DNA of 64,000 nucleotides from Antedon mediterranea (taxonomy: Eukaryota > Animalia > Echinodermata), in NCBI RefSeq assembly GCF_964355755.1, contig NC_092672.1:10106001-10170000 (forward strand). The letters are read 5' to 3'. Position numbers and translations under genes: made by a program. Each line of letters starts with the position of its first letter. The stretch's first letter is position 1. Positions 13,001 through 45,826 of the stretch are shown here, one piece after another. The notes under the pieces were generated by a model that did no database searches, was not told the DNA's origin, and saw only the letters and a program-made list of their open reading frames with translations.

Positions 13001-16000
13001 AATATATTAAGCTTACCATTGTAAGCATAGAAAGTAGATCCTCTTCACGTGCATGCTGTAGAAATGTTTCAGTAAGAGCTTGCACAAACCATGAACCTCT
13101 CTCTGAATTACGCCATGATACATAACCTAACAAAATAAAAATACAATAAATAATATTATAAATAACATTACCTTACACTCTGGTGTTAGTTCAGGACTTT
13201 ACGCAGGTTGGAAGAAATCAGCCAGAGCTGAAGTTGATATAATTACTTCAAAAATCGTTCTTTCCGAAATGTATAATTTACTTTCAATATCAATATCTAC
13301 TAACAATTATTATTCTTTATGATCAACAATCACTGATATGATAATCAGTCGGTTGAGAGTTCAATGACTTTAAATGATTTGATCACCGATATCTGACACA
13401 GATCGTTTAGTTCGGGTTAATGAATTTACGTTAAAGCTTCTGATACTAAATAAACTTTTTAATAATTCTTTATTTTCAAAAGACATGAGATGAGATATAA
13501 AAATGCTTTGGAAGCACAAATTCAATATTGATGACTATTGCGCAATTTCTTACTTGGGTTAGTATACAAATAATGAATGTTTATGAGTGCAATGGTACAA
13601 ATAATGGCACGAGGTGAATGATGAAAGGTTATATCAACGAGGCAAAGCCGAGTTGATATAACCTTTCATCATTCACCAAGTGCCATTATTTGTACCATTA
13701 CACAAATACAAAACATTCATTATTTGTTTTATATAACATCTAGACGTTTTTTTTTCGTACACAAAAATGTTTCAAAAAGTACTATTTAACGATCGTTGAA
13801 TAGTGCGTACTATTGCACGCCATGTGACCCACATTCGTCCAATCAAATGACAGGAATTTATATAGGTGTTATATAAAACTAAATAATGTCTAGTCAAAAA
13901 TCTATCAGCTTAAGTTTGCTAAAGGTTGAACTAAGCTGGGACAGTTGCATTGGATAAAAGCATGGTTGTTGTGACTTGACAAGATTCTATAGATTAAAAG
14001 TAGCTTAGACAGTGTAGACTGGCACAGCTGCATAGGCGCAGTTAAAGGCATGGTTTCTGTGACTTGGCAGCTTAGACAATATGGAATAGAACAGCCTTCG
14101 GTAAAACAACATTGCAATGTAAACTATCAAATATGATGAAACTGTTGATGTAGTCAAGAGCGAAATACATGTGGTATTATTACACACAGTACCTCTACAA
14201 GATTGAGCGAGTGTTATTTCTATTGTGTAAACAACGTTGTGAAAACGGCCGATATTGAAGTTGAGCGTGAAAACGAGAGCAAGCACAGTTGCATAGGCAC
14301 AGCTAAAAGCATGGTTTACGTGCTTGGTAGTTTCTAAAGAGAGTTCTTACATGGCACAGTTAAAAGCATGTTAATGTGGATTGACAGCTTTAAATGTGTC
14401 ATTACCTGGTAGTTACATGGCTAATAGCATGTTACTGTGGCTTTAAATTACAGCTAAAGTGTGTTCTTACCTGGTACAGTTGCATAGGCTAAAAGCATGT
14501 CACTGTGGCTAGGCAGCTTAGATATTTTGCTACCAATTGCATCTGTTTCATCAAATTCGATTTTCAACATCCTATTAACAAGATTCTCTGGATTATCAAC
14601 ATCTCCATTAATGTTTAGGGAATGAATATCAGGATCTACGGAGGAGCCTTCATTTGCCGATGGTCCATCCGTGGCTTCAACGCCTTGATCAAACATTTCT
14701 TTAAAAAAAATTTATATTTCCAGTGAGAAAATAAAATAAAAAAGACAGCTTTACTTTGAAACATTACACTTTTTGGGAGAAAAGTGATAAAAAGAAGAGT
14801 TCGAAACTCACTAGCACTATGATTCTGGTTGTAGAACATAGTCTTCTCTTTCAAGACGAGTAGGAGTTACCTTGGTGTACTAGTTCACACACAATGCAGT
14901 GAGGACATTATCTTTGAATTTATATAGCAATTGACAATTTCTACGCATGAGAAATGTGATGCATGTAACCATTATAGTTTATGTTATAATTCTATTAAAA
15001 TAACTGGAAATTGGATAATAACAATTGCAAACGTTGATTTCGCATGTTACTGTACATCTTTGTAGAATACTTTTTAAGCAAGACAATTTGCATGTATAGA
15101 ATAATAACAACTCTTTAGTTTCTATCTAATCAAAGCAGAAGCCAAGTAAATCCATTGTCTCTATCAACTACAAGTGTCAAGAATTAATTTTCAGATAAAT
15201 TCTTTATTTTCAGGTTGGTTTATTGAGACAAGCATTTACATCAAAATATATTCTCCTCTATTTTAAATTCAAATCCGTCTAAATTTTTCACAAGTAGTTT
15301 TCATGAGGTGAATCTCTTTGTACAAACATTTATGCAGAAACATTTCACAAAATACAATTAATTTTTCAACTACAAGTGTGAATAACCGAAGTGTAGACGA
15401 TAAATTAGATTTGATTGCATGCTAAAGTTGTTAGCTATTTTTATAAGCGGTCAATAACATTGTTAGATTTTACAGCAAAGAAAAACAAAAAAAAACAAGA
15501 GTAAGTGAGTGAGTAATAAGAATTTGTTTGATAGAAATACGTAAATTCAAAAATACGCTTTACAATAATTGATGGGCTTTATGGATGTAATATGCATATA
15601 ATAATGTATTATTTTCTATCAGCATGGTTGACCATGCATGGAATGTAAAATTTTGTAATACCAAGGTTGACTCTGTACATAGTTCCAAGGTGCCGTTTAA
15701 GACTATAGAATTGAGAGGTACAGTTGATATGCGGATGGAAAACACTGGTTTTCACAAACAAAAAACACTAAAACAAAAATATTTCATAGTCGGTATATAT
15801 CATGTGTATCACATGCAGTGCATGTATTATGCAAGGTCAGGTTAAGGTTTTGGTCTATGATATTGGCTGTATTCACCAACCACACTTGAAGTGAGATATT
15901 TCTCTTAAATATTATTTAAGGTGCAATATCTATACCTGATGTGTCTAAATATGTTTTTAAATAAATAAAAAGTATTTCTCTTAAATTGTATTCACTTCAT

Positions 16001-19000
16001 TCAAGTGTTTCTCTTAGACTAAGTGTGAATGGTGAATACGGCTACAGCTGCACAGTTGACCATGCTGATAGCCTTATGTGTTTTATTACATCCACTCACC
16101 TCCACGGCAGGCTTGGATGAAAAAAAGCTTTGGTTTACCAGTCAGGGATGGGCAACTGTCTCCAGTAAAACAATTCTGAATATCATCTACTTTGATGAGC
16201 CGTTCGTCCACACTGTACAAGGCACCATTCACACCATGAGTGAGCACGGCAATGATGAAGCAATCATACCGAGAATGATTCATTGTGCTGTAATGCCTCA
16301 ATTTTTTATAAAAGTCCTAAAAAATATTAAATTTTGAATTGAATTTTAAAATCAAGTTTTCTTTCCATAAGATTTCAATGTAACTATAAATTTAAATTAG
16401 TTTAAGGATGTGCATTTAACTGTGTTCAACTGTGCATTGGCAAAAGTGTGGATTATCATAATGCATATGAATTGCATAGTGCATTATTAATGCATAATGT
16501 ATGATGTATTATTATAATTAAATACATAATGCATGATAAATAAATTTGTACTGTATAATGTGTACCGGTAATTAATGCATAATTCATGATTTTCAGGAAG
16601 CACACAATTGATTTATATTATTCAGTAGTTCAAAGACATACATTGTACTTGAATTCTAAATCCTTTTTTGTTCAGTTGTCATACGTGTACCTAGCACCCA
16701 GTGAGAGTATGTATTTCAAGTTTACAAATTATAGGTGCTGTATGAGGTAGGAAGTGATGGTGTGTTTCTATGTAGCAGTGGTAATTGGTGTCGATGTGCA
16801 TTACTGGAAATAGAAGAATAATCCAGCAAAATTGCACCATTAAACCATATTTTGTTTCCCTTCTCTAATTCATTCAAATAGTTTGTATATTTCAAGTGGT
16901 CAAAATATAATTCAGGACAAACCAATGTTCATTTTGGTAGCTTTTCAAAACTGATAACAAATTTATATTCAAGAATTGGTTTTAATTTCAAATTTTAAAT
17001 ATTTGAAATAAATAAAAGTGAAGAGGTAAATTATTTATTGTCTTCAAGCTTAACTGGAACCAGATTACAACGAATATTAAATAAAGTAGGTAGGATCACA
17101 GGATCTAGACATAATTTGGATGACATTTGCAACAAAATCATAAGAAATAAGGCTATGAAAATATGCGACGACTCAAACCACCCTTTAAATAAACATTATG
17201 TTAAAATGAGATCAAAAAGACTAAATGTGCTGAGATCGTGCAATAGTAGGGTTATGCGATATTTTAATTCTTTTGTTCCGTATTCTATTAGACTGTTAAA
17301 TGATTTTGCATAATTTTTGAAATTTTTTATGTATTGCAGCTTTTTATTTTTTATTTAGTTAATTGTAGTCTTATGTTCATACTAAGTACATTGTTAAATA
17401 ATATATAGTATTTTTAAATATTGTAATTAATTTTTTTTATATGAAACGTTTTTATATATTTTTGTACAATTTTGTGAAAAGCACTCAAAATATTTTCCTA
17501 TGTGGACGAAATAAAGTTATCAAATTTGTATCAGATCCTCTAGGGTCTCACAGCAGTCGGCAGTGCAACGCCTACCAATATCCGGAGAGATCAGGAAACA
17601 ATATTCTACTCTTTTTGAATAGTGTACAGAGTTCTTCAACATGCCCTATGTGTACACGGGACCAATGGCTTTACGTCCCATCTAAAGGACGAGGCAATGA
17701 CAGTAAAGCATTTTGCCTAAGGATACAATCAGTATGGTACAGATGGACATGGACACATGCTTGTCCGATTGTGTTACTATCATTACACCATCACTCTCCG
17801 AACTATGGTGATCTAACAAGAAGCTGTGTTTCAACCAATATGGCCGTTAAATACTCACACTATATGTTGAATTTGTAAGATTTTCAACCTCAAATGCTAA
17901 TTGAGTAAACAAACATTCAAGCTGTCGAGCATCCACATCGGTTCCTTTTCGTAACGGCATCGATCGGAAATTACGATTGTTGACTATCAGCGCTTTCCCT
18001 CTAGGCTTTGATTTGATTGTGTAGTTCTGATGAAAAAAAAAAATTAAAAAAATCTCAGTAGTAGCATTTATAGTACAACAATTATAGCAGCTTTCTTAAT
18101 AAAGATAGTACGGTTTCTTGGGTATGACCATACTGTAGGGAGCCCTCTATTGTTTGTTGTAAAAAGAGAGAATAACATGGACATCAAACAAGACTGTTGT
18201 AACTGAGCCTACAATGTAGGGTTGTTTAAATAATGATTCAGTTCCAAAATCACGGCTACATAGTGTAGATTATCTTTGAATGTACTGTCCATTTGTAGGC
18301 CTAGCAGAAAATATTTTAAATCCATCAATTTACATTAGAATTTCTATGCTTTCAATTTAATGATATTAATTTATATATGATAAACTTTTCCTTTTCCTGG
18401 ATTTAGAGTATGAACAACTGATCGAAATACTGCAATCTTAAATGATATTGTTCGTAAAGGGCCAAAGGCATTCCGTGCATTAGCAGAGTCGTTGTTTGCT
18501 ACTGAGATGTACCATCTAGCTACACTTTTAATACCAGACCTTACTGAAGATACATTGTACGATTTAAGCTATTATGAATTTGAAAATGATACCAAAGCAC
18601 CTATGCAACCAAGTGTTGGAGACAAGCCACCTGTGCAGCAGAGTGTTGCAGAAGGCAGTGGAGATTTTAATCCCACACGCAAGTTTCCGACTGGATTTAC
18701 ATTTTAATTAATATTTTAATTGTTTATAAACTTTTACAACTACTGTTGAGGGTGCTGCATTCACAGCTGGACTCTATACATAATGTGAACACATCCTTGT
18801 ACAGTATGTATTCTATAATTTCACTGAACCAAATCTAAGAATAGTGTGAACGCAGCTAATACATATACACTACCTGTGGACTATCGGTCATTTCACTTGT
18901 ATAATTTCCTTTACTCATTTTCATTTGTAGAACTTCATCTGCAGTTTTCTGTGGCCAAGCTAAATATAGGGTGAAGAGTAATGGAAATATGTATTACAAA

Positions 19001-21389
19001 AAAGTAATAAATTTGTGTTTTTTGTTTACATGTATAATAAGCAAATTATCAAAAATATGATTTAGTATAATTAAATGAATTGTTATAATTGGAACTTGCA
19101 CTCCTTGACCATGGTCTTGAATGTAAAGTTCTGTCTACACTATACTAACTAGTTTGACAAAAAAAATGTGATGTTCCCAAATGTGGTAATGATATGACAT
19201 TAAATCATGTCCATATATGGGCACATCACATGTTTTTGTCACATAAAGTTCAGGGCCGTAGCCAGGATCTGTCAAGGGGGGGTTCGCACACTAAGTATTT
19301 TGGTCACCCCCACCCCCATACCTACCCCCCCCCCCCTGGGGTGGGGCCTGAGGCGAAGCAAATTTTGTTAAATGACACCCCTAGATGGCCGGAAAATACA
19401 CTCTCATGCAGCATGCTACCAATGAGCAAAACGATCGTACTTGGACTCGTGGACTATTTAAACGATAACATTTGTTGCCGTATGTTAGATGCGCGTGCTC
19501 TGTGCGGAACCGCCGATTTTTTTATCATTTACTCGATATTTTGTTTTGCGTTCAAGTTCAATGATAACGTACGTCTAGGAGAAGCCCCGAAAAAAGCACA
19601 CTGGGTGAAGGCAAATGCAATTCTTATTATAGCTCTATCAATAATATTTATTTACAGCAATTTGTTGAGGAAATTAAATATGCCAATGTAAATAGGTGAT
19701 ATTGATACATTTGAGTACGTATTGGCTGGTGGTCTAGAAAAAAATAATCGGATGCCATAATGTGAACTACAGTACATGATACCATAGATATTATAGTGTA
19801 AAATATTAATATTCACTATAATCCTCTATGATACATTATACTTCATAGCCACACATAAATACTGATGTATGTCGGAAGGCTATATACTTTATGCATGCTG
19901 CCTGACCGCCAGTGATCTAAACAATTGGTACGCAGTTGTCTGGCGGTGTTCTTTGTACGAATCGTTCGTCCCCCAGCTCGCTGTGAGACGCGTCAATATC
20001 ATGTTACATGCAGGGACCAAACATTTATTTTTCAGGTTAAAATCGGCAATTCATTTGCAACTCTTAGAAATTTACAGACTATATCGCTCGAAGTACGCTC
20101 ATACAGGGAAGAAGGTACTGTATGAGTTATTCCGAACGAGTTTACGAATTTTTTAATTTACGAACAACTTTTTGTACTGTGGGGCACGTATTTGGACGAT
20201 TTTCGGAGATGAGGGTGAGGTATTGGGCATGTCGGGGATGGGGGTTCGCAGTCGGTTAAGGGGGGTTCGCTGTAAAGGGGGGGTTCGCCCGAACCATAAA
20301 AACCCCCCCTGGCTACGGGCCTGAAGTTTGATAGTGTAGACAAGGTTTAAGGCAAGTTTTCTATATAGGATGATTTATAAATGCAGGTCCAGTGTACACC
20401 TGTGTACCTTTAGGAAGTAAGGGGTTGCCCTAATGTAGTGATGCTGTCGCAGTAGACAAATGAGCGCTGTTTGAGGCAGCTGAACACAAATTGGACCTTT
20501 TAGCTATAAGATGGCATTTAGTCCAGTTGCACTTTGAGACAGTGTTATCTATCATTTTTATCAATCAATGTTATTATTATCATCTACATTACCCTCTGAG
20601 ACTTGCGTCGGAAACTTGCGTGTGGGATTAAAATCTCCACTGCCTTCTGCAACACTCTGCTGCACAGGTGGCTTGTCTCCAACACTTGGTTGCATAGGTG
20701 CTTTGGTATCATTTTCAAATTCATAATAGCTTAAATCGTACAATGTATCTTCAGTAAGGTCTGGTATTAAAAGTGTAGCTAGATGGTACACCTCAGTAGC
20801 AAATAACGACTCTGCTAATGCACGGAATGCCTTTGGCCCTTTACGAACAATATCATTTAAGATTGCAGTATTTCGATCAGTTGTTCCATTCATACTCTAT
20901 AACAACAAATTATGAGAAAATATTACAATTTGACTTGTTGTTTGTTTGTTTTTATTATATATTTTACATTCAATTATTTTATAAAATATTTTGAAAACAT
21001 AATACTTTTAATAGTCATGCTATGCCTAGTATCCAGATTATTATGTTGGCATAAATGGTTTTTATACAATCAATTTTTCTCATTTGTCCAATTTTAAAGA
21101 TTGTAGAAAAGTAAAAAAAAAGTGTTAATTTTCTAAAACAATATTGTAGTACAGTTTACTGTATGTTTAGTTTCATTATAAGAGTAACCAGTATTATATT
21201 TCAATATAAGAACACGTATCTTTTGTATTATTATTGGGTTATAAAAACAATCCTACAAACCCGGTATTTTTCATCTTCAGATGTATTAAAAATTTGTCTA
21301 GCCACTAATTCGTTCAAGATATCCATGGGCATATCGCTAACTAATGTTATACGATTCGTTCGCAGAATCTTCTTGTGTGCAGCTTCCAT
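6888..21389 (-). CDS. CASP9: CARD-containing initiator caspase, caspase-9-like, ~453 aa. Eight coding exons: 21389-21261, 20896-20593, 18959-18874, 18026-17859, 16316-16100, 14698-14471, 13126-13017, 7007-6888
   Basis: All junctions are GT-AG and phase-consistent; the exons sum to 1362 nt ending in TAA. N-terminal CARD (MEAAHKKILRTNRITLV...RKGPKAFRALAESL). Large subunit: KPRGKALIVNN, RKGTDVD, catalytic His in VLTHG, Cys in GKPKLFFIQACRG. Linker DETDAIGS. Small subunit: [33 protein letters not shown]...KQMP...LTKKLFF. Caspase-9 rather than caspase-2 is judged from motif resemblance only. Confidence 0.92.
8265..8691. mobile_element. MITE/foldback element with long TIRs and internal 21-bp GGCGGCCG-containing tandem repeats
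   Basis: TACGGAAGCCCGTTCGGGCCACAAGTTAAC...GTTAACTTGTGGCCGAACAGGCTTCCGTA; flanking direct repeat TTTATG; left end duplicated at ~8449. Confidence 0.85.
9094..11219 (-). mobile_element. Non-autonomous TIR DNA transposon (~1.07 kb family), outer copy, interrupted by a second copy
   Basis: Termini CAGGCCCGTAGCCAGG...CCTGGCTACAGCCCTG; 5-bp TSD TAATG (9089-9093, 11220-11224). Confidence 0.92.
9588..10636 (+). mobile_element. Same family, inner copy in opposite orientation
   Basis: CAGGGCCGTAGCCAGG...CCTGGCTACGGGCCTG; 5-bp TSD TGTAT (9583-9587, 10637-10641). Confidence 0.92.
11880..12305 (-). mobile_element. SINE-like remnant (Nin/Deu-domain-like)
   Basis: GGTTCTTTAAAGTGC...CACGGGAC...GTTTATAGTTCTTATCTGAGAAAACT...CCGCTAGGCCA pattern (recognition only). 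Confidence 0.4.
13017..13126 (-). CDS. CASP9: Caspase exon 8: [37 protein letters not shown]
   Basis: Substrate-binding S-W-R and GSWF motifs; ttgttag acceptor; ATG|GTAAG donor. Confidence 0.95.
13565..13735. repeat. Long palindrome, probably a MITE
   Basis: AATAATGAATGTTT...GAATGATGAAAGGTTATATCAAC / GTTGATATAACCTTTCATCATTC...AAACATTCATTATT. Confidence 0.7.
13905..14460 (-). repeat. Degenerate tandem copies of the 3' end of caspase exon 7 in intron 7
   Basis: Repeated variants of cagttgcatagg-ctaaaagcatg-tcactgtggct-aggcagcttaga. One copy translates SKLPSHRNHAFNCAYAAVP versus exon [17 protein letters not shown]. Confidence 0.75.
14471..14698 (-). CDS. CASP9: Caspase exon 7: intersubunit linker and start of small subunit
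   Basis: ORF 14454..14696 (MFDQGVEATDG...[28 protein letters not shown]); CCAG|GTAAG donor. Confidence 0.93.
16100..16316 (-). CDS. CASP9: Caspase exon 6: catalytic His (LTHG) and Cys (QACRG)
   Basis: ORF 16086..16301; tttttag|GAC acceptor; G|GTGAGT donor. Confidence 0.96.
17050..17520 (+). mobile_element. LINE 3' fragment (L2/Rex1-like)
   Basis: RLQRILNKVGRI...DDSNHPLN...RYFNSFVPYSIRLLN C-terminal motif, then T-rich UTR and AATAAA. Confidence 0.7.
17525..17765 (-). mobile_element. SINE-like remnant
   Basis: GGCTTTACGTCCCATCTAAAGGACGAGGCAA...GCCTAAGGATAC resembles common invertebrate SINE cores (recognition only). Confidence 0.4.
17859..18026 (-). CDS. CASP9: Caspase exon 5: start of large subunit, NYTIKSKPRGKALIVNNRNFRSMPLRKGTDVDARQL...
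   Basis: Canonical caspase PRG-x-ALI-NN and R-x-GT-x-x-D motifs; poly-T acceptor; GTGAGT donor. Confidence 0.93.
18406..18690 (+). pseudogene. Inverted, near-identical copy of caspase exon 3 inside caspase intron 4
   Basis: Matches the reverse complement of ~20608-20897 with a 5-nt deletion and few substitutions; flanked by direct repeat CTGGATTTA (18397-18405 and 18691-18699). Confidence 0.9.
18874..18959 (-). CDS. CASP9: Caspase exon 4: prodomain linker (A)WPQKTADEVLQMKMSKGNYTSEMTDSPQ
   Basis: 86-nt exon (tttag|CT ... CAG|GTAGTG) that restores frame between exons 3 and 5. Confidence 0.8.
19251..20323 (+). mobile_element. Third copy of the 5-bp-TSD family, nested in a small palindromic MITE (~19124-20350)
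   Basis: Same TIRs; TSD AAGTT (19246-19250, 20324-20328); host ends TGTCTACACTAT / ATAGTGTAGACA. Confidence 0.9.
20593..20896 (-). CDS. CASP9: Caspase exon 3: CARD C-terminal half plus linker
   Basis: Within ORF 20561..20893; acceptor ttatag|AGT; donor G|GTAATG; phase 1. Confidence 0.88.
21261..21389 (-). CDS. CASP9: Caspase coding exon 1 (gene exon 2): CARD N-terminal half, MEAAHKKILRTNRITLVSDMPMDILNELVARQIFNTSEDEKYR
   Basis: ATG at 21389; acceptor AG at 21404-21403; donor GTTTGT from 21260; phase 0. Confidence 0.88.
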
Positions 21390-27310: not shown

Positions 27311-27556
27311 ACTTTTCTGGCTGTTTTACTTCTCGTTTTGATTTAGCTTTTCGCTTTTATTTTGTATCTCCATTGAGATCCAGCCACTGATACCCACAGC
27401 ATTGTCATTTTTTTCAGTAATTTGCCTTTGGATTTATATATATTTTCTACTGTTTGTATCAATTTTGATCTGATTTTGCTGTAATTATGGAGGGTACTTT
27501 GGATAACTTTACCAAATTACGTCGCCTATACTATGACGTTATCCAAATTCCTTCAC

Positions 27557-27597
27557 TTGCACTGATGAAGGGCTAGTGTTGCCCGAAAGCTCTGCTA
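27557..27597 (+). ncRNA. Minimal hammerhead ribozyme motif, copy 2
   Basis: GCA-CTGATGA-A-GGGC tagtgtt GCCC-GAAA-GCTC-TGC, with a perfect stem II. Confidence 0.65.
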
Positions 27598-28524: not shown

Positions 28525-28620
28525 ATCTGTGAAAATGAGAAAAAGTCGCCCCAACAGAGACTCGAACTCGGACCGCCTGCTTGATATGCAGATGTCCTAA
28601 CCATTAGACCACTGGGGCTT
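28525..28620 (-). mobile_element. tRNA-derived (Asp-like) SINE head or tRNA pseudogene, within a ~370-bp direct duplication (28305-28500 / 28670-28900)
   Basis: Minus strand GCCCCAGTGGTCTAATGGTTAGGACATCTGCATATCAAGCAGGCGGTCCGAGTTCGAGTCTCTGTTGGGGCG with A and B boxes; decayed relatives at ~31550-31615 and ~59085-59155. Confidence 0.65.
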
Positions 28621-29127
28621 TCATGGTATTGTTCAAACTCGATTGGATAGCGACTCTTTAACATTCTCGGCATGGTACGGCGGAACAGCACTAGTCCTCA
28701 GTTGTACACACGCGCACCAGAGATCAAATTGATACGCCCTCATCTTTCAGTATTTTTATTCACGAGGCGGGATCTCCGAAGAGATACTTTTATATATATA
28801 AACACATTAGGCAATGAACATTAATTCGAAACCGCCCAGTGATATACTGAAATTTAATTAATTAATTAATTAATTTGAAATGATACAGATGAGGAAATCT
28901 ATATTATATATATATCTTTTGTAACAAATAATGAAAGGTCTGGTTATTTCTTGCATTTTTAATAAAATACAAAAACTATGCAATTTGTTCATGATTAATA
29001 TGAAAAGATATATATTCTATGATTTAAAAGCAGTTGAGTGACACAAGGCAATGCCTGTATAGCACAACTTAAAATTACTACAGCATTGTTCAACACATTT
29101 CACCTTGGTATCACCTTTATCCGATAC

Positions 29128-32100
29128 TTAATGACGAGCGATGGTGATTGTTGTTACTTTATTCTGCTGGTCTGCTGTTATGTTGCACTCGACTGGAAAT
29201 AAACTTCTGAATGCATCGACACCTAGTGACAATGATTTAAACACTTCATGATCACAAATGAGTTGTTTGCATTCCTTTGTTAATAACACCATATGTTCAC
29301 TGTCGAAGAAAATTCAAAATAGTAAAGTATGAGAACTTTTGAAATAATTTAAACAAGGGTAATGTTTACATTATGAGCGGTCTGAACGGTTTCATTTAAA
29401 AAGTTTAGAAAATTGGTATATTAGAACTCTAGTATTAAAAGTTATCACTAACACCCGTCTGAAACCGCAAAATGGGATGTCACCTAAACCTGCTCAGTAA
29501 AACAATTGGCTACAATCAAATCAATGTTTTCTCTATGTTTATACTATGTCTATGTATGTTGTGAATATGCCCTTTCAAAAGAAAGTGGACAGGTAAATAG
29601 AGAAGGAGCAGGGTGTGGATAAGAAGTTGGTAAGAAGGATAAGAGGTTTATTGAATGATAAACAAATCTGCAATTGTAATATGAATACAGATCATATTTT
29701 TTGTGGTGTTGTTTCAGACTATTTAGTTTACAGAATTAAACTTACACTGTGGGATCAATACCACAGATGATTTGTTTCACAACTTTAATGCTTTTGTCAG
29801 GAGGTTGAGACAGAATCTGTAGCAAAACAAAATTATTATCAATATGTTAAAGCAACATGTACTTCCGGAGCCTGGGTGTAATTACTTTGGGAGACAAGTA
29901 TGTAACTGGAATGTAGCCTAGTTTTAATTATGTTAGTTTAGGTTGTAATTATAATGTAGGTAGTCTAGGATGTACGGTAATTATAATGTAGGTAGTCTAG
30001 GATGTAATTATAATGTAGGTAGTCTAGGATGTACGGTAATTATAATGTAGGTAGTCTAGGATGTAATTATAATGTAGGTAGTCTAGGATGTAATTATAAT
30101 GTAGGTAGTCTAGGATGTAATGTAATTATGTTAGTCTAGGATGTAATTATAATGTAGGTAGTCTAGGATGTAATTATAATGAAGGTAGTCTAGGATGTAA
30201 TGTAATTATGTTAGTCTGGGATGTAATTATAATGTAGGTAGTCTAGGATGTACGGTAATTATAATGTAGGTAGTCTAGGATGTAATTATAATGTAGGTAG
30301 TCTAGGATGTAATGTAATTATGTTAGTCTGGGATGTAATTATAATGTAGGTAGTCTAGGATGTAATGTAATTATGTTAGTCTATTATTAGTTAATTATTA
30401 TAATTAATAAAGAATAGACTAGGTTGTAATTATAATGTAGCCTAGGATCTAATAATATATTATATAGATTAACAAGAACATATTGTAAAGCATCGGGTGA
30501 AATCCTGAATATCAAATAATTAATTTGATACAATAAAGATTACTCTAGTAGCTAGATCAACTATGCACTTTGAGGTCCAGAGAATTTGACTTCAGAAATT
30601 GGTTTAGGATGGTCAAACAATCATTTTTGGCTTGGTTACACAATATTCAGTCTAATGGCACATTTTAGTCAACAATGACTGGAAATGCCATTTCTGACAT
30701 TTGATTCACAACCCAAGGCATGTACAGTATGTATCTCCGTAACTACTGGTCGTAGACACTTCAATTTGCTCTTAAATTGTTTGAAATATACATTTTGTTA
30801 TTTGTTACACATTTTGAAAAATGTTATAAAAGGTCAAAGGGTCAGGGTTATATGAACAAATATAAATAGGTACTTGTATCTTGGCAACCACTGGTCGCAG
30901 CAAGTTAATTTTGGTCTCAAAATGTTCAGAAGGCAGACAATTCAGTCTAATGGGACATTTTAGTCAAAAATAATCAGAAATGCAATTTCTGACCTTTGAC
31001 CCACATACTAGGGCATCTTCATATCTATGTAAGTACTGTTCGTAGAAACTTAAATGTTGTATCAAATTGTTCGAAATATATATATTTAGATTCATTCTAA
31101 TAGAAAATTTGGTTAAATGATGACCAGAAATACTATTAATTACTAATGTTTCAAACAAAAAACATATCTGTATACAACTTATCCTTGGACAGTAATGTTA
31201 TGTAATAACTTATGCTTAAAAATTGTTTCATTATAGGATTTAAAACAAATTTTTGTAATTGTATTTTTGCTTATAATAATGCTAGAAAGTATTGTTGACC
31301 CCCGAGGACGATCAAACATTTTGATAGAAACATCGAGCCCAAGAAGTAACTTACCGAATTCATCCTAATAAACGCCTATTGGTGTTTGGTCTTATAACCT
31401 TTCAACCTGACCTTTTGACCTTTCACCACATTTTCAAAATGTGTAACAAGCCAAAAATGATTGTTTGACCATGCTAAACCAATTTCTGAAGTCAAATTCT
31501 CTTGACCTCAAAGCTCATACAAAAGTTTATCTACAGTAACTACTAGAGTAGATGAGGAAATCTGTGAGAACGAGCAAAAGCCGCCTCAACCAAGATTCAA
31601 ACTTGGAACTTTCTGCTTTAATAATAATTTGAAGAAGTTACCTCTAGGCGTGTAAGATTCGTTGTTTTTAATTCTGGTTTTTGTTTAAACATATCCACTT
31701 CGACATTAGTGAAGAGGAATGTTGCACCATCATGCTCTTCAGTAATTTCATCAGCCTTTTCACCCCAGAGTTTTAATTTAATTGTTGAATTTGTGTTTTT
31801 TAAAACCATATCACGGCGTTGCCAAGGGGTAATTTTTTCTCCAATTTCTTTTTCTCCGATCTGTTTTAAAAAAAAACAAAAAAACATCAGTATAACAGAA
31901 GGTTTGTTAATAGTCTTTTGGAAATATAATATATAGCACCCTCTATAATTTTTCGAAAAATGTTAAGATATTTGCAATTCATTAAAAATATTTTTTAGCA
32001 CAACATGCACCCTCTATGTGTGTTGATATCGTCTTGAAGTTTCAATTTCAACAACCCTGTGAGGAATTAGATATCACATGTTATAATCATTTCGACATTG

Positions 32101-35100
32101 TATTATTAGCGATAATGCCGCAAAAACATCCTCCAGTTACCAAATTTTACCCACCCCAATAGGACAATATCGTGTTCATCGTAATATGCAAAAAAAAATT
32201 CTGAAATAATAAAAAACCCAAAACTTTGATTTATGCGAACTTTTTTATAAACGATAAAATAATTCAAATTGTTTTGCTTTTATTTATTATATATTATTAT
32301 ATATTTACCGTACTGACGCGGGTATAAGCCCATACTCGGGTATAAGCCCACCCCCGACTTTTGACTAATTTTCATGAAAAATGAGGCACTCGGGTATAAG
32401 CCCACCCATTAATTCGAAGATCTACAGTGTGTGTCGTAATACATATTTTTGTATTTGGCGACGTCCATACACCGAATACACCTACCTTTGATCATAACCA
32501 AGCTAGGCTAATATACGCTAGGCCATAAGAGGCCTAGCGGTCCTGTTTTGTTTACACTCCATCGCGGTCGAAGATCGCTTCACACACGACGCTACATACA
32601 AGTCGCCAAAACGGAAAACCACTATTTGGTATCGGCTGCCATAAACAAGCTTATTAAATTTCTTTGGTACATTTCTATTTAACGAACATTGTATACTTGC
32701 TTTTCTGCTTGATAAATTCTTGTTCAATTGATGTTTAAAATAAGATATTCTACGATAAATTACATGAACTATAAGCTTAATTAATAATCGTGTATTTAGA
32801 GGCAACGTCGTACACGTGAGGGCGCTCGCTTGCATGGTGGAAATACACAGTGTACATGTGCAGTTTTTGACGATCTGCATTTTTGGATCCTCGGGTATAA
32901 GCCCACCCCCCAAACTTGACGTGATTTCATGTTCGAGGGGGGTGAGCTTATACCCGCGTCAGTACGGTATATATTCCATAAGAATTTCATATAAGAAAAC
33001 ATAGTTTTAATCATTGAATTGACAAAAAACAGGAATTCCAAAATAGCTGTAATGACGTCACATGACATCATTAATATGCAAATTACCTTTTTTTACTCCC
33101 AACTGTAGACCAACCTTTTGCCCACCACACACCACAAAAATAATTACAAAATTATCTCATTTAGTATCTTTTATGACAGTCAGGGTTCGAAAATCACCCT
33201 AACAATTTGCAAGTATATTTTGTTTTTTTTCTAGTTACAAATTTAATAGTTATAATGTTTGCTGGTTACTATTAATGTATGGTTGGATATTGATATGAAA
33301 TAGTTTGAATGATTTTGGAAAACTGATTGAAAACAAAATAATATTGTAACTTACCATTGTAACTTTTCCTTGGATAGTGACTCGTCTTCTTTTGGGGCTT
33401 CTCACTGCCTCCTCAATGCTCACCTCATCTGGAGTAAAAAATTTGTTCAATTTTTCTTGTGGGATTTCAAAATCATTGTTTCCCCCTTGAAACACCTGTA
33501 AAGTAAAAAAAAGTAGTAATGATTTGAATACAAATTGGTTCAGTAATTTTGGGTGTCTAAATACCAGAGGTAAAGTTCAACTGCACAGTATGTGAATGTG
33601 GAGTTTGACTGCCAGAGGATTTAAGAGAAATCAATAATTAAATGGTAATCATTTACCTTGGATGTTCCTTTTTTAATTATCAATTCCTGTGTGTTTTCTT
33701 TGAAACGTAGTGTTGCATTTGTTACTATTTTGTAGTCATCTTTTGTAATCTTTTTAACAAATGGAACGTTTTTTGCTGATACTATTCCTCGTAAATATTC
33801 TGATTTGTCATTAAAGGCATGAAATTCCCAGTAGGTTCCATGGTCAGCAGGAGGTGTTAAAACATATATGTATATCATTTCCATATACTAAAAGAAAGAA
33901 TTGATCGTTATCAAATCATGTGATCAAATGAACACTGTATCACATTGTACATTGGGTGTGTAGTGTGTAGGAACATTTTTAAGTTAATTTATTTGATCAG
34001 TCACAGAGTCACAGTGCCACATGTTACAGTTACATATTTAAAAAAAAAGTAGAGTGACTCTACAATATGACACGCTCTTCAGGATAGTATTTCATCTGTA
34101 TATTATTATAAGCTGGGTTAAAAACATTCTGTTAGGGTATGTTCAGATCCATGGAGTTATGCTTTCGTATCGCAAGCAATGTCACATTATAATTATCATA
34201 ACTGTAACAGCAAACTAATGCTTTCTTTAGAAACTGAAGAAGTCCAATTTGGGCGAGCATCTGGTATGCAGGTTGGAGGTCAAAATCGTTGATGCATGAC
34301 TTTCATATTGTAAGCATCGTTCGCTAATCTTCTGCCTTGAGATGATGAACGAAAGATCAGTGTTGTAAGAGTAAAGTAATCTTTTCCTGGTTCAAACCTA
34401 TGGAGTTGTACAATATGAAAGCACAACTCCGTAGGTCTCAACAGGCCCTTAGTGTTGGAATCCAGATGAAATTTAAAATTGATCAGATCTCACCCTTGAT
34501 ACATGAATGTGTGTTATGCATTATGAATATTTTGAAGAAAATATAAAAGCCCATGGGCTATTCAAAGGGGGACGTTTGTAACTACAGCAATATGCCCATT
34601 TTTTATAAAAGCCACTAGTACTTAAGGGACACTTTTCCTATACTCACTTTGTCTTGTTGAATTGCAGTGTTTGAAGAAACTAAAGATAAGAGAGAAAAAA
34701 AGTAATGGAAAAATACTGCAATAAAAACATTTTCAAAACAATATCATGAGTAACAATAACAATTTTTAAAATCTGTATGGCCAAACGATAAAAGTATGCA
34801 TTTTGTCAGTTCACCACTGAAGTCCATTTAGAATTAAAGTATGGAGAATACACATTCTTAGCAACTGAAGTTATAGTACTGTACTGTCAAAGACTATCAG
34901 AAAAAAATCGTTGATTGCTTTCTTCTGAACTTATTTCACAGCATACAACAACAACCAAGCCACGGACTGGCCAAACAGCTGAACCAACATAATGAAGCAA
35001 ATATATGAGAGTCTATGGTTGAGGCAGAATTAAGATTTCTTTTTAGGTAAAAATTGTGATAAACCACTGAAATTATCAAGCAAAACTTCATCACAGCATG

Positions 35101-35752
35101 GGTCCCTTAATAACGCACATAGCATAATGTCACTGTGTCGTGATCGTATCCATACACAGTACTGTAGGTAGTTTTTAATACAGTATATTTTGATTACATT
35201 GCATTCACTAAGAGTAACGCATAATTTTGTCTTTTCCCTTAAACAGCAAGTGTGTAGTACACTACATGATCCACTAACTTTTATGTTGGTTCAATAGAGT
35301 TTGCTATGTTTTTCGGAGGTTTGCAGGGTTTAGCAATTAATTTTTAACCAAAAAATGATGTTTTACTCCAAAAATAAGTAGTTAACAAAAACAATTTAAC
35401 ATTAAAAAAAAAATTGAAATATTAGGTGTGTAGTACACTACACGATTCACTAGCTTTTATGTTGGTTCGATGGGGTTTGCTATGTTTTTTCGGAGGTTTG
35501 CTGTGTTTAGCAATACCCCCAGTAAGTTTTGCCAACTTCAAATTATTCTTCAGATTATAGTACAGTTAGAAGTAGTTAACAGGATTACAATGGCAGAAAA
35601 TTCAAAAGAACAACAGTCTTTCTAGATAAATCAAAAAAATTAATAACAGAGCTATGATATACATTACCATCAGCCAAGACTTGTCTTGTGGCATTCCAAT
35701 TTCTACCCCGCTTCTGCAGCACCTTGCTTGTCTCCAACTGGCTGGCTTTCAT
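29128..35752 (-). CDS. Tandem OB-fold nucleic-acid-binding protein (RPA/SSB-like, HIN-200-like), ~316 aa. Exons 35752-35668, 34679-34648, 33887-33657, 33495-33355, 31860-31642, 29816-29746, 29299-29128
   Basis: All junctions are GT-AG with consistent phases (1,0,0,0,0,2); 951 nt, no internal stop. OB signature RRVTIQGKVTMIGE...RRDMVLKNTNSTIKLKLWGEKA...GATFLFTNVEVDMFKQKPELKTTNLTRLE. The two short 5' exons are less certain; an alternative start is Met 33884. Confidence 0.75.
29925..30450. repeat. Minisatellite (TAGGATGTAATTATAATGTAGGTAGTC and shorter variants) in OB-gene intron
   Basis: Directly visible tandem array. Confidence 0.95.
30541..31550. mobile_element. ~1-kb TIR element inserted in a SINE remnant
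   Basis: TACTCTAGTAG...GAGAATTTGACTTCAGAAATTGGTTTAG is inverted at 31440-31550. Confidence 0.7.
32306..32969. mobile_element. Tc1/mariner/pogo-type MITE
   Basis: TACCGTACTGACGCGGGTATAAGC...GCTTATACCCGCGTCAGTACGGTA; TA ends; repeated GGGTATAAGCCCA motifs. Confidence 0.85.
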
Positions 35753-35885
35753 TACTGAAATCATAAAAACTTAACATATAATTTATCTTCAGTGAGGTCT
35801 GATATCTATATAAAGTATGGTTAATTCTGACATAGGCGAGCACAATGCAAAAACCTCGGTACAAATCTGCGCCTTGGATACCTAC

Positions 35886-36210
35886 CTTATCTATCTCAGA
35901 TGTACCGCGAAACGTAGATTTGATAACATTAATTTTCACATCGACGCTATTGTTCCATATTTCTATCTTAGGAAGATATTATAAAGGGTTTTATAGGAAA
36001 TTTTCTGATTTCAATCGGTAAATTTTAACTCTACGCGCAGTAGAAGTAATTTCCGGGTTAACGGTCAGGTGTGTCAATCACCTTGCAAGTTCCCTGCATG
36101 GTTGGTGTCAACCAGGGAGTTGTAAAACAACTCCCTGTTTCAACTAAGTTGGTGCTTGGTGGCGATAGCCATTTTGGTTTTTTGTTTATTTTCGGACCGC
36201 GCGTGTGAAG
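35886..36210 (-). promoter_or_regulatory. Putative non-coding first exon and promoter of the OB-fold gene
   Basis: Donor AAG|GTAGGT at 35886/35885; locally CpG-richer sequence with TTCCGG (ETS-like) and GCCATTTT (YY1-like) motifs. Confidence 0.35.
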
Positions 36211-37093
36211 GTATAGTACTGTAGTACATAAAGATCAAATTAAATATATTCATAAAAAATTGGAGTATTATTGTGGGAAATAATTATATAAAATTACATC
36301 GAGAGAATTGATGATAAGAGCTTTTGTTTAAGATCGAATGAAACCCCGATAGCCGAGTTGTTGAGTAAGCTGCCAGGACTCATGGATGGATACTTCTGCC
36401 CATATTGCAAGCCGTCTAAAAGGTCTTCCTTCTTAGGCCAAAACGACTCACTGTGTTGCGGAATAATATGTATTAACTATACCGATTAGAATGGTATTTA
36501 TTTGAATAAACGCCCGGAACACCTCCCCAATAAAACATCAATTAAAATAATTATCACCACTCTCCTCCCCCCCCCCCCCTCCAATACCATCTAATTAACG
36601 CCCATCCCAATTTATACACACAATATTGTATTATATTTATAACACAATTATACTATTTTTTAGTAGATTTCATCGGACTGTTATCTACAATTTACCAAGC
36701 ATTTGTTATTCTTTTTTACCACTTTTCATATCTACAATAAACACTATACGTAAAACGCTATTAATCATCTAAAACACTGTGAAACAGGTTAGTGAGTAGG
36801 TTTAGTTTTACGAATATCAAAAGCATTTAAATAATGGTAACCGATCGAAATCGTCCAGGCCAGAATGTCCTTCTAAAACTTTTTACCAGAGTCACTATCA
36901 TTCCGAGAACCATGGTCTACACTTCCTAGAGGGGGAGCAAGCGAAGCGAGCTCACCCTCTAGTTAATATAAAGTATAGCTAAATGCTGAGACCCAGTAAA
37001 AACAAATGATTGCCGTTTGGTGGCAGCTAAAGGATTGATGCAACGAAATATAATCCACAGCGATTTAAGATGGTGTTTATTATCTATTATTAT

Positions 37094-37863
37094 CTATAAC
37101 ACCCTGAGACTTCTTGTTGGAAACTTGCCTTCTGCAACACTCTGCTGCACAGGTGGCTTGTCTCCAACACTTGATTGTTTGGTATCATTTTCAAATTCAT
37201 AATAGCTTAAATCGTACAATGTATCTTCAGTAAGGTCTGGTATTAAAATTGTAGCTAAATGGTGCGCCTCTGCAAATAATGACTCAGCTAGTGCACGGAA
37301 TGCCTTTGGCCCTTTATGAATAATATTATTTAAGATTGCTGTATTTCGAGCAGTTGTTCCATTCAGACCCTATAAAAAAAGAAATTATGAGAAAAATATT
37401 ACAATTTGACTTTGGAAATTCATCTGTGCACAAGAGATGATTTCTGTTGTTTTTTTATAACATTTGTTAATATTTTGAAAACATAAAAGACATTCTATGC
37501 CTAGTATCCAGATTAATATGTTGGCATAAATGGTTTTTATAAAATCAATTTTTCTCATTTTTCCAATTTTAAAGATTGTAGCAAAGGAAAAAAAGTGGTA
37601 ATTTCCTAAATTAATTTATAATTTTGTAGTAAAATACTGTATGTTTAGTTTAATTACAAGGTAACCAGTATTATATTTCAATTATTTAAGAACCTGTACA
37701 TCTTTTGTATTATTGGGTTAACAATCCTACAAACCAAGAATTTTTCTTGTTCAGATGGCTTAAAAATTTGTCTGGTCACTAATTCGTTCAAGACATCAAT
37801 GTGCATATCGTTAATTAATGACATACGATTCTTTCGCAGAATCTTCTTGTGTTTAGCTTCCAT
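37094..37863 (-). CDS. CARD-only paralogue of the caspase, ~134 aa (exons 37863-37735 and 37369-37094); possible 5' half of a CARD-OB fusion
   Basis: MEAKHKKILRKNRMSLINDMHIDVLNELVTRQIFKPSEQEKFL|GLNGTTARNTAILNNIIHKGPKAFRALAESLF...KFPTRSLRVL*. Splice sites of the first coding intron are preserved; deletions of 3, 9 and 24 nt are all in frame; no catalytic exons follow. Confidence 0.75.
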
Positions 37864-42010: not shown

Positions 42011-43924
42011 GTATTATAAATTATAAATATTTTATTTTATAATCATAAGCTTGTTTCAAATCCTATATAAATAATCTCGATTTTCTTTGATGAGTTCAAA
42101 ATACGCGCACACATTTTCGAACGGTATGAAATCATTCGGAAATTAAATGTTCATATAAAAATAATAGTAATATCAAATTATGTAAATAAATGATTCACAT
42201 CTTTGCCTAAAAAAAAAAAATAGTTTAGGCCTACTGTTTTTTATAAATTCAAAAGCAAATGAGTAGTGGAGTGGGTGGATCTCGAATACAAATAAAATAT
42301 ATTGCATGCCAAAAATAATAATAAATTGCAGGCCTTACTCAGTATGAGTGTTTATAATAATACAGTATATATATTTAACACCACCCCAGCCACCCGCTCC
42401 ACTTCTGCAAAATGAGGAAAAAATAATGTTTTCTACACCCAACCTGTACTCAGAAGACACGTTTGAGTGTGCCAAATGGTTGATTCAGAGGTCACCAAAA
42501 ACATCAAAACATTTTTATTTATTTATTTTGTTATCTATTTAATACAAAAATGGATATCATGATAATTATGATAATAATTATGATACTTCCTCTGGCTTGA
42601 CAATGACAGTTTTCATGGTGAAACACTCAGAATGAACCCCTTTAAAAATAATTGGGTGCTGCAGGATTTACTGATTTTCAACAACTTACAAACACAAACC
42701 AAAAACCTATTCCTAATACAAAATAGTATTTTGGTTTTTCGTTCCATTTGGAGTAATGAAGGCTGTTGAAATTATTCAATTAATTAATTAATTTAAAAAA
42801 TAAAATATTTGTATATGAAGAAAAACATCCAATAAAAATGTTTTTAAAATTTTCTTCAATAATTATATTTTACATTATAGTAAAATGATTAATAGTAACT
42901 ATCTCTAATGGTTTGCTTCTTTGCACTATCCTGTGGTGTATGAAATGGCAAAACTGCATTTTGTAAACATGGCAACATCACCAGAATACATTAAGTACAA
43001 AATACTGTACAATAAAACTAATTACAGAGCTATACTGGCAGGATAACTTAATTTTAAAAATATAATATTTGTATCTGAAGATCAACATGAACATTTCTCA
43101 TCCAATAAAAATGTTTTTAAAATTTGCTTCAATAATTATATTATTTACATTATAGTAAAATAATTAATAGTAATTAATACTATCTCAATGGTTTGCTACT
43201 TTAAACTATCCTGTGATGTATGAAATGGCAAAACTGCATTTTGTAAACATGGCAACATCACCAGAATACATTATTGCAGTAAAGTACACTACTGTACAAT
43301 AACATTACTAAACTAATATTACAGAGCTAGACTGGCAGGATAATTTAATTCAACAAAAAACATGGCAATTTTTTAGAATCTTTTCTTTTAAAACATAACC
43401 TGTACATAAAAAAAAACTAAACATAATTAAGCGTTTTCATTACAACACAAGCATCTAGAAACAGCGATAATGTGTATCTAGTGCGGCGGCCCATACAAAT
43501 TAGCGCGACTAAAATAAAACATGACTGATATCAACCGTAACTAATATGATAAAAAGCGTATCTAGCTAATGCTGGACTGAAATGTCCTGTATTTGTCTGC
43601 CTCTCCCGGCCCCACCCTTAGATCTGTTTGTATGTTTCCTACAATGCTTACATACATAAGCACTGAATCAATATTGATATAAATCTTTTGTAAAAATAAT
43701 GAAAGGTTCTATGGTATTTCTTGCATTTTTAATAAAACGAAAAAACTATGCAATTTGTTCATGATTTAGTATGAAAAGATATAATCTATAATTTAAAAGC
43801 AGTTGAACAATACAACACAACTTAAATTGATTACAACATTCCCAGTGTTTTAGTGGATACACGTTCCTATAAGGTATTGTGCTCTTGTTGTTGCCCATAA
43901 CAGGAAAAGCAATCCACTGAAACT

Positions 43925-45826
43925 TAATGACGAACGATGCTGATTGTTGTTACTTTAGTTCTGCTGGTCTGCTGTTACGTTGCACTCGACTGGAAATAAA
44001 CTTCTGAATGAATCGATGCCTAGTGACAATGATTTAAACACTTCATGATCACAAATGAGCTGTTTGCATTCTTTTGTTAATAACACCATATGTTCACTGT
44101 CGAAGAAAATGAAAAATAGTAAAGTATGAGAACTTTTGAAATAATTTAAACACGGGTAATGTTTACAGTATGAGCGGTCTAAAAGTTTCATTTAAAATGT
44201 GTAGAAAATTGGTATATAAGAACTCTAGTATTAAAGATGTATTGTTCCTAAAAACACAGAAAATGAAGATTAATATAAAAACATCTACAAAATTACAAGA
44301 TAAAATTATCTTCTTGACTTCCTGTTGTACTGGATGATACCGGAGGGAATAAAGGATTTAGCAAATCGATTTGTTTTCACACTGAGGAGCCTCAATCTAC
44401 CACTTGGATTAAGTTGGTCTATGATCACTTTGTGCAGAGGATGAGAGGCATGCGTTCAAAATCTTTCTGGAGGCGTTCTATGTGCACATCGGTAAAGAAA
44501 GGCAGTTCCAGACCAATCAAATCCCAATTGGCTGCTGACAGCCAATTTTACCATTTTATGGTTTAAATTACACTTGTTTTTAAGGTAAATATATATTTTT
44601 TTTTCGATCTAATTTTTTGTAAAAGTGAATAACTATTATTATGTAACAATAAAATTGCTTATTCAACAAAAAAAATTTTTTTCAGGGGGACAATACATCT
44701 TTAAAAGTCTATCCACAACACCAATATGAAACTGCAAAATGGGACATCACCTAACCTGCTCAGTAAACTTAGATTTACATAAAGCAATTGGCTACAACCA
44801 GATGGATGCTTTCTATATGCTATTGTGAATATGCCCTTGGAATTCTTGTAAAGTGTAAACACATAAATAGAGGAGCAGGGCATTGATAAGATCATATATG
44901 GCAAACAGGTAGCTGTAGCAATGTTTTAAACACTTTATGAACACAAAGAACTCTAGAATTAAAAATGTATTGTTCCCCAAAAACATGGAAAATAGGCCAT
45001 TTGCAGCTTTAATAGGGTATTGCTAAACTGCGCAAACCTAAAAAAACCTGCGCAAACCTCCTCCAAATCACTTATTATTGGTTCTATCATGACAAGGACT
45101 ATCATAGCAAGTAATTAATGAAAAAAAAAATGAGGAGGAGGTTTGCGCAGGTTTTTTTTCAGGTTTGCGCGATTTACACTGTAAAATCTGACATTTTACC
45201 CAAAAAAATGATGGTTTTCGCCAAAAAAAAAAGCCAACTTACAGCAATTTCATAATTTTGTTTTCATAAATTATTTGCTATGATAATCCTAGTCATGATA
45301 GAACCAATAATAAGTGATTTGGAAGAGGTTTGAGCAGGTTTTTTTTAGGTTTGCGCGATTTACACTGTAATATCTGACATTTTTACCCAAAAAATGATGT
45401 TTTTCGCCCCACTTACAGCAATTTCATAATTTTTTTTTTCATAAATTACCTGCTACGACAGTCCTGGTCATGATAGAACCAATAATAAGCCATTTGGAGG
45501 AGGTTTGCACAGGTTGTTTTTTAGGTTTGCGCTTGGTTTGCGTAGTTTAGCAATACCCCTTTAATAAAATTAATCACTTTAGTTGAAAAAAAACACTTTG
45601 TTTTCAATAATAAAAAGACAAAATAAACAGAAGAGGATTATTGAATGATTATTGAATGAATGATAAATAAATCTGCAATTGTAATATAAATACAGGTCAT
45701 ATTGTTTGTATCATTGTTTCAGACTACAGTATTTAGTTTAGCGAATAAAACTTACACTGTGGGATCAATACCATCGATGTTTTGTTTCATAACTGGAATG
45801 TTTTTGTCGGGTGGTTTAGACAGGTT
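43925..45826 (-). pseudogene. 3' remnant (last two exons, 45826-45756 and 44096-43925) of a second OB-fold gene copy
   Basis: Paralogous to 29816-29746 and 29299-29128. A 1-nt insertion gives a premature TAA at 43955. Upstream exons were not found; LINE sequence starts after ~46630. Confidence 0.75.
45013..45560. mobile_element. TTAA-flanked TIR MITE (Kolobok-like) with ~170-bp internal repeats; related remnant at ~35250-35520
   Basis: GGGTATTGCTAAACT...AGTTTAGCAATACCCCT flanked by TTAA. Confidence 0.75.

What the first reader, a model, noticed from the sequence alone, without database searches (positions are those of the whole stretch)
29128..35752. Unannotated multi-exon tandem OB-fold protein resembling HIN-200
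The ORF track shows only fragments, but seven exons assemble into an uninterrupted 316-aa ORF. Motif order parallels my recollection of HIN domains: FHA...EY (HIN FHATVA..EF), LII...SKV...FEIP (LEV...V...MEIP), SIEE...VTIQG (KIN.L....VNG), LKNTNSTIKLKLWG (IQDNTGKMEVVVHG), ELKTTNLTRLEIL (ELRSVIHSHIKVI). HIN-200 is normally regarded as mammalian. The second fold is also RPA70/SSB-like, so this may be a link between the two families. The alignment is by eye only.
Basis: partly seen in the sequence, partly recalled or inferred. Interest (0 to 1): 0.8.

Follow-up and report, generated by a model that had tools for sequence, protein, structure and literature searches.

The report
Transposon-linked relative of AIM2's DNA-binding domain
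This feather-star gene encodes a predicted three-barrel DNA-binding protein whose sea-cucumber relatives sit beside rolling-circle transposon genes and whose fish relative carries a pyrin domain, which suggests that the DNA-sensing HIN domain, thought to be mammal-only, likely grew out of a transposon's DNA-binding protein.

Summary
The gene is real. It belongs to a ~270-aa family (crinoids, sea cucumbers, a nemertean, a priapulid) predicted to have two OB folds plus a third small barrel. HIN affinity is real but modest. A confident model of the Anneissia homolog gives HIN for the top 8 Foldseek hits, but HIN ties with RPA70 in VIA (Z 15.2 vs 14.6). A family profile finds HIN chains (E 4e-4) through OB1, while OB2 is closest to archaeal SSB. 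The crinoid pieces do not reach Pfam HIN. HELIANO (2024) already lists Pfam HIN as Helentron cargo, without discussing it. No RepHel lies in the window. The gene sits between CARD exons and a caspase; a CARD fusion is possible but unproven. Best reading: a host-retained Helentron-type DNA-binding protein on the lineage between RPA/SSB and HIN.

The parts
33657..33887 (-). First well-supported coding exon (most of OB1, the HIN-OB1-like part); family start codon ATG at 33884, 3 nt after the acceptor
   Evidence: (profile positions 1-72)
33355..33495 (-). Exon: end of OB1, helical linker and first strand of OB2
   Evidence: profile positions 71-118
31642..31860 (-). Exon: OB2 (SSB/RPA-like; Pfam REPA_OB_2 E=0.003)
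29746..29816 (-). Exon: start of the third domain
   Evidence: in NCBI model
29128..29299 (-). Last exon: third small beta domain and stop codon
34648..34679 (-).
   Evidence: acceptor rank 5 of 162, donor rank 15 of 196
35668..35754 (-).
35810..36960 (.). High-copy repeat between the CARD exons and the OB gene (edges approximate)
   Evidence: summed depth 7e4-7e5 vs about 135 in unique bins
37129..37369 (-). Upstream CARD exon 2; a GC donor after 37129 (phase 1) would join the OB gene in frame; read through, it ends a 134-aa CARD-only protein
37735..37863 (-). Upstream CARD exon 1 (ATG 37863)
13018..21389 (-). Downstream CARD-caspase gene (exons 21389-21261, 20896-20593, 18959-18874, 18026-17859, then exons starting near 16316, 14700 and 13126; HG and QACRG motifs present)
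43924..45826 (-). Duplicate of the last two OB-gene exons (45826-45756, 44097-43924; 1-nt insertion in the last); part of a collinear duplication 20641-30456 / 37126-46452

Best explanation
The locus encodes an intact, spliced, about 276-aa protein (ATG 33884) predicted to fold as two OB barrels plus a third small barrel, which likely binds DNA without sequence preference and likely descends from the accessory DNA-binding gene of Helentron rolling-circle transposons, the stock from which the mammalian HIN domain likely also arose. Shown: exon chain, open frame, family membership, RepHel-fused relatives, a pyrin-fused fish relative, and structural and profile similarity to HIN (OB1 and linker) and SSB/RPA (OB2). 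Inferred: in an element the protein would coat the displaced strand during rolling-circle transposition, as proposed for Helitron RPA. This copy has no RepHel within the window and single-copy read depth, so it is probably a host-retained or stranded copy. An acceptor just before the start codon would make it easy to graft death-fold domains on (pyrin in medaka; possibly CARD here).
For: Family: 27 phmmer hits at E<=1e-3, one spurious (P0012); named members from Anneissia, Apostichopus, Holothuria, Lineus and Priapulus. The model aligns over residues 41-315 at 28-31% identity. Helentron link: 3 of 12 named sea-cucumber records carry RepHel sequence directly before the family start. P0045 has Helitron_like_N, PIF1 and DUF6570; P0037 and P0042 match its RepHel at 57-62% identity, 2 of 49 proteins tested. 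PMC11417382 (section 22 read, passages, Table S11 rows) calls DUF6570 an HLE2 marker and lists Pfam HIN and Ssb-like_OB as HLE2 cargo. HIN link: AF2 model of the Anneissia homolog P0031, pLDDT 91.5; Foldseek ranks 1-8 are HIN (E 2e-11 to 2e-10), first RPA70 is rank 9. Profile A7 finds p202 at E=3.6e-4 and 10 HIN chains below E 0.01. Medaka P0039 aligns to the invertebrate profile over 247 columns (HHalign probability 98.9) and scores PYRIN 26.1 bits (cut-off 22.9) and HIN 23.1 (cut-off 22.7). No RepHel in the window: best tblastn E=0.36. Depth over 33522-34004 is 130 vs 135-139 in other unique bins.
Against: VIA Z: HIN 15.2 (rmsd 5.8, 177 aligned) vs RPA70 14.6 (rmsd 6.5, 182 aligned), a tie. 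The invertebrate-only profile reaches HIN at only E=0.43 but SSB at 7.5e-5. P0039 alone finds RPA70 (E=0.002) and no HIN chain among 12 hits. Only 1 of 3 medaka proteins passes the HIN cut-off (P0038 22.5 bits; P0040 not hit), and P0047 is not hit. None of the 10 listed ESM Atlas feature rows for P0001 or for P0003 shows Pfam HIN. The RepHel fusions come from two holothurian species and are gene predictions; the family could be host genes captured by Helentrons. The tree is unresolved (2 of 9 branches supported) and has no HIN or RPA rows. The fold was predicted for a homolog (30% identical), not for the spliced crinoid protein. OB1+OB2 is only mildly basic (K+R 32, D+E 30). NCBI's model starts at residue 163.
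Confidence: 0.55

Rival explanations
1. CARD-OB fusion sensor: the upstream CARD exons splice through the GC donor after 37129 into the OB gene, giving a 411- or 440-aa CARD-triple-OB protein that would cluster on DNA and recruit the neighbouring caspase CARD to CARD, as AIM2 does through ASC.
For: Both joined models are open. The GC donor ranks 1 of 118 GC sites, flank score 10.7. The upstream CARD is intact, with in-frame indels, and 85-89% identical at DNA level to the caspase CARD exons. An older CARD-exon remnant with the homologous phase-1 donor already fronts the OB gene. The medaka homolog shows the same design with PYRIN.
Against: No fused protein was returned when exon 31860 was searched among 129-2000-aa proteins; only the 154-aa model came back. 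dN/dS between the CARD copies is about 1.0 (123 codons, 7.5 synonymous changes). The CARD also reads as a 134-aa CARD-only protein. Tandem duplication plus deletion explains the adjacency without function. A 1.1-kb repeat intervenes.
Confidence: 0.2
2. An ordinary RPA70/SSB-derived Helitron passenger; the likeness to HIN reflects only the shared tandem-OB ancestry and size.
For: VIA tie among HIN, RPA70 and Teb1. The best sequence matches are archaeal SSB/RPA. The three-domain layout aligns along RPA70 A-B-C (4gnx_C, model 1-268). Helentrons are known to carry RPA ORFs (PMC4067079, passages).
Against: Profile A7 finds 12 HIN chains and no eukaryotic RPA70 among 20 hits. The match starts at the family's first residues and HIN's first strand and runs through the linker. 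P0039 passes the Pfam HIN cut-off.
Confidence: 0.15
3. A stranded, decaying transposon passenger, or a gene that yields only the 154-aa annotated product.
For: The NCBI model is 154 aa. The duplicate exons upstream are frameshifted and lack the 5' exons. The branch to this protein is long, 1.79.
Against: All five core exons are open, in phase and have canonical sites, although the introns hold repeats. Exon 7 vs its duplicate has dN/dS 0.23 (3 vs 3 changes, weak).
Confidence: 0.1

Closest known systems
HIN-200 domain of PYHIN proteins (AIM2, IFI16, MNDA, p202, p204; Pfam PF02760)
   Same: Predicted tandem OB pair of about 195 residues aligning end to end with HIN (model 1-195 to p205 205-393); top Foldseek hits; OB1 and linker recovered by profile; the medaka homolog has pyrin plus linker upstream.
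   Different: Third C-terminal domain; OB2 is SSB/RPA-like (the LWG-type motif); the crinoid pieces do not reach PF02760; no pyrin in the crinoid; DNA binding untested.
Helentron (HLE2) accessory RPA / Ssb-like_OB / HIN cargo (PMC4067079, PMC11417382)
   Same: Separate OB ORF beside RepHel in holothurian models, one with the HLE2 marker DUF6570.
   Different: This crinoid copy has no RepHel in the window and single-copy depth. In the holothurian models the ORF lies downstream of RepHel, whereas HELIANO reports RPA upstream in HLE2 (the HIN position is in a figure I could not see).
RPA70 DBD-A/B/C and archaeal SSB/RPA (PF16900, PF21473)
   Same: OB2 hits REPA_OB_2 and Sulfolobus SSB; VIA Z 14.6 to RPA70 A-B; three domains align along RPA70 A-B-C.
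   Different: Shorter (about 270 aa); lacks the N-terminal domain; the third domain is about 75 aa, too short for a zinc-ribbon DBD-C (inferred from length); below the REPA_OB_2 cut-off.
CARD-only proteins from caspase duplications (human COP/INCA/ICEBERG; recalled, no call)
   Same: The upstream CARD exons are a tandem duplicate of the caspase's CARD and can end as a 134-aa CARD-only ORF.
   Different: Here they lie 5' of an OB gene and could splice into it.

Membership tests
HIN-200 / PYHIN | Pfam HIN (PF02760) at the curated cut-off | tested here: not met
   No HIN hit for the crinoid exons or P0001 or for full-length invertebrate homologs P0031, P0034, P0035. The spliced crinoid protein itself could not be scanned. 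Met by medaka P0039 only (23.1 vs 22.7).
HIN-200 / PYHIN | Tandem OB fold in a HIN-like arrangement | tested here: met
   Homolog model, (Z 15.2, rmsd 5.8, 177 aligned); tied with RPA70 in VIA
HIN-200 / PYHIN | N-terminal pyrin domain | tested here: not met
   Upstream exons are CARD-like; PYRIN is present only in the medaka homologs
HIN-200 / PYHIN | Sequence-independent dsDNA binding; interferon induction | not testable with these tools
   Needs experiment
HIN-200 / PYHIN | Shared intron positions with two-exon HIN genes | tested here: inconclusive
That this column is an exon end is inferred.
Helentron (HLE2) accessory OB gene | RepHel in the same element | tested here: not met
   Not in this 64-kb window; met for 3 holothurian homologs
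Helentron (HLE2) accessory OB gene | Subterminal inverted repeats, 3' hairpin, TT insertion site around the gene | tested here: inconclusive
   The 25 longest of 185 inverted pairs in 27000-38500 show no pair that clearly brackets the gene; short subTIRs were not examined
Helentron (HLE2) accessory OB gene | High copy number in the genome | tested here: not met
   Exon bins at unique depth, with a few diverged paralog contigs
RPA70 (RPA1) | REPA_OB_2 at cut-off, plus N-terminal domain and zinc-ribbon DBD-C | tested here: not met
   16.7-17.9 bits vs cut-off 27; 276 aa in total
MEIOB / POT1 / SHLD2 | Family profile at cut-off | tested here: not met
   POT1PC best E=0.013, below cut-off; no MEIOB or SHLD2 Pfam hit for crinoid pieces

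The most novel reading that the evidence does not exclude
The HIN domain was domesticated from the triple-OB DNA-binding gene of Helentron transposons, and death-fold plus OB DNA sensors arose from this stock more than once: PYD-HIN in therian mammals, PYD-triple-OB in teleosts (medaka LOC112142445), and CARD-triple-OB coupled to its neighbouring caspase in this crinoid.
Probability: 0.3. Interest if true: 0.9.

Novelty: new variant of a known kind. Interest (0 to 1): 0.72.

Why it matters
PMC3458909 (passages and two supplements read) found no trace of HIN or close relatives outside mammals and left its origin open. This family is a concrete candidate for the missing link: HIN-like in OB1 and SSB/RPA-like in OB2, carried beside rolling-circle transposases, and fused to pyrin in a fish. 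It makes two questions testable: did AIM2-type DNA sensing come from a transposon, as RAG did (recalled), and do fish and echinoderms have their own AIM2 analogues? HELIANO lists Pfam HIN among Helentron cargo without discussing it in the section I read. My 10 paper searches (listings only, except papers named as read) showed no paper on a Helentron origin of HIN or a pyrin-OB fish protein. Subscription journals are largely outside that library, so prior description is not excluded.

Tried and rejected
No whole genome is held, so copy number rests on contig depth only. No RNA holder was listed. Contigs of X5, X1 and X2 showed no splice joints among the rows shown (tables were cut); this says nothing about expression. 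A 28-nt candidate exon at 33114-33087 breaks the frame and lies in a repeat; rejected. The single-sequence fold of P0001 was useless (pLDDT 33.6). phmmer of P0001 against PDB gave only chance hits (BmrR, E>=0.26). The exon 33887 search found nothing. Viral contigs: 0 of 63 pattern matches confirmed. Metagenome contigs: 1 of 80, L001, a sugar-pathway gene cluster matched through a short pattern; rejected as chance. P0012 is a repetitive, spurious hit and was dropped. The BFVD search gave baculovirus LEF-3 and phage SSBs, i.e. generic multi-OB similarity. The family tree was unresolved. The first splice-site matrix had two mis-set training sites and was redone; it rests on 9 sites only. In one search only 25 of 32 families were shown, so a weak HIN hit among the other 7 is not excluded. 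The third domain was not folded or searched alone. PMC8195603, PMC5214946 and PMC6335826 (passages) had nothing on point. Four look-ups of earlier findings returned nothing. Not done: the spliced crinoid protein was not folded or scanned by the remote tools, and no HIN or RPA70 rows were in any alignment or tree, which leaves the direct HIN-versus-RPA70 placement open. HELIANO figures were not visible.

Full report
1. Observation. The window is AT-rich animal DNA. On the minus strand, five exons (33887-33657, 33495-33355, 31860-31642, 29816-29746, 29299-29128) join at GT-AG sites into an open frame of 277 residues. Searching exon 31860 returned one protein among 29 candidates: a 154-aa NCBI model from the crinoid Antedon mediterranea, identical to model residues 163-316. 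So the 3' junctions are independently annotated; the exon at 33887 was found in no annotated protein.

2. The 5' end is doubtful. A profile of 8 homologs from other species covers model residues 41-312 and starts at the ATG at 33884 (276 aa). The acceptors of the two 5' exons score below 8 of 9 training sites. They may be UTR, a coding extension, or nothing.

3. Family. phmmer over 1.84 billion representatives gave 27 hits. Named members come from the crinoid Anneissia, the sea cucumbers Apostichopus and Holothuria, the nemertean Lineus and Priapulus. Full-length members are 269-282 aa and 28-31% identical to the model. By eye, fragments called from other genomes break at the same junctions. 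A profile search added three medaka (Oryzias melastigma) proteins at E 1e-15 to 1e-19 and 89-92% cover; HHalign confirms the link over 247 columns (probability 98.9). They carry PYRIN above cut-off. One of the three passes the Pfam HIN cut-off (23.1 vs 22.7), one just misses (22.5) and one is not hit.

4. Fold. The Anneissia homolog P0031 folded with pLDDT 91.5 and pTM 0.65 into two OB barrels and a third five-stranded domain. Foldseek: 24 of 31 listed rows are HIN chains, including ranks 1-8; 4 are RPA70, first at rank 9. VIA: p205 HIN Z 15.2 (rmsd 5.8, 177 aligned), RPA70 Z 14.6 (rmsd 6.5, 182 aligned), Teb1 Z 14.6, which is a tie. By sequence, the invertebrate profile finds Sulfolobus SSB through OB2 (E 7.5e-5) and p204 HIN weakly through OB1 (E 0.43). 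With the medaka rows added, 12 of 20 PDB hits are HIN chains (best E 3.6e-4, with some composition bias) and none is eukaryotic RPA70. Against this, P0039 alone finds RPA70 and no HIN chain, and a profile rich in OB2 fragments finds SSB and RPA only. The family is thus intermediate: OB1 and the linker lean to HIN, OB2 to SSB/RPA. The crinoid pieces reach only REPA_OB_2, below cut-off.

5. Helentron link. Three of 12 named sea-cucumber records have RepHel sequence directly before the family's start Met. P0045 has Helitron_like_N, PIF1 and DUF6570, and P0037 and P0042 match its RepHel at 57-62%. The same ORF also exists alone as P0035, identical to the tail of P0045, so these are probably two adjacent genes merged by prediction. 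PMC11417382 (passages, section 22, two Table S11 rows) names DUF6570 as an HLE2 marker and lists Pfam HIN and Ssb-like_OB among domains found almost only in HLE2. PMC4067079 (passages) describes RPA ORFs in Helentrons. In this window there is no RepHel (best E 0.36), and the exons have unique-sequence depth with a few diverged paralog contigs.

6. Local context. Downstream on the same strand is a CARD-caspase gene with HG and QACRG motifs. The block 20641-30456 is duplicated collinearly at 37126-46452, at about 79-90% identity in most pieces. The duplication places intact CARD exons (37863-37735, 37369-37129) upstream of the OB gene, and broken copies of its last two exons further up. A GC donor after 37129 would give open 411- or 440-aa CARD-OB proteins; read through, the exons give a 134-aa CARD-only ORF. 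dN/dS between the CARD copies is about 1.0 on few changes, a high-copy repeat intervenes, and no fused protein was found. I give the fusion 0.2.

7. Mechanism. Shown: gene structure, family, RepHel-adjacent and pyrin-fused relatives, and similarity to both HIN and SSB/RPA. Inferred: sequence-independent DNA binding; an ancestral role coating the displaced strand in rolling-circle transposition; retention by the host here; easy acquisition of N-terminal death-fold exons through the acceptor just before the start codon. Whether the crinoid protein acts in immunity is unshown; the caspase neighbour and the medaka architecture are circumstantial.

8. Against what is known. It is not a PYHIN/HIN-200 member (no pyrin, Pfam HIN not reached, extra domain), not RPA70, and not currently inside an autonomous Helentron. 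PMC3458909 (passages; supplements 2 and part 1 of 3) reported no HIN or close relative outside mammals. The Pfam HIN match in Helentrons is in print as a list entry. I found no paper drawing the evolutionary link or describing the pyrin-OB fish gene in 10 searches, within an open-access library.

9. Verdict.

Noticed in passing
P0038-P0040, P0046-P0048 (medaka LOC112142445 and KAF6740038.1): PYRIN, a basic repeated linker, then a triple-OB module of this family; P0039 passes the Pfam HIN cut-off. An AIM2-like architecture in a teleost.
   Followed up: partly
window 18412-18707 (+): Inverted copy of caspase CARD exon 2 inside the caspase gene's intron 3.
   Followed up: no
window 37735-37863 and 37085-37369 (-): Possible 134-aa CARD-only gene duplicated from the caspase; dN/dS about 1 against it.
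   Followed up: partly
window 28304-28900: tRNA-like sequence (ARAGORN: tRNA-Asp, anticodon atc, 28547-28618) between two 92%-identical 233-nt repeats; probably a tRNA-derived SINE.
   Followed up: no
window 39007-41522 and 46805-49042: LINE reverse-transcriptase fragments and a PHD/GDSL-esterase ORF1-like region; the latter borders the upstream end of the duplicated block.
   Followed up: no
window 29874-30457 and 45945-46630: Tandem repeat array in an OB-gene intron, present in both duplicated units.
   Followed up: no
P0027 (Priapulus): Family member with an internal repeat of OB2 plus the third domain (416 aa).
   Followed up: no
ESM Atlas clusters: Unnamed clusters of 298 aa (79 members, Chordata) and 305 aa (82 members, Mollusca) score 0.95 to P0003; probably larger branches of the family that I could not fetch.
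   Followed up: no
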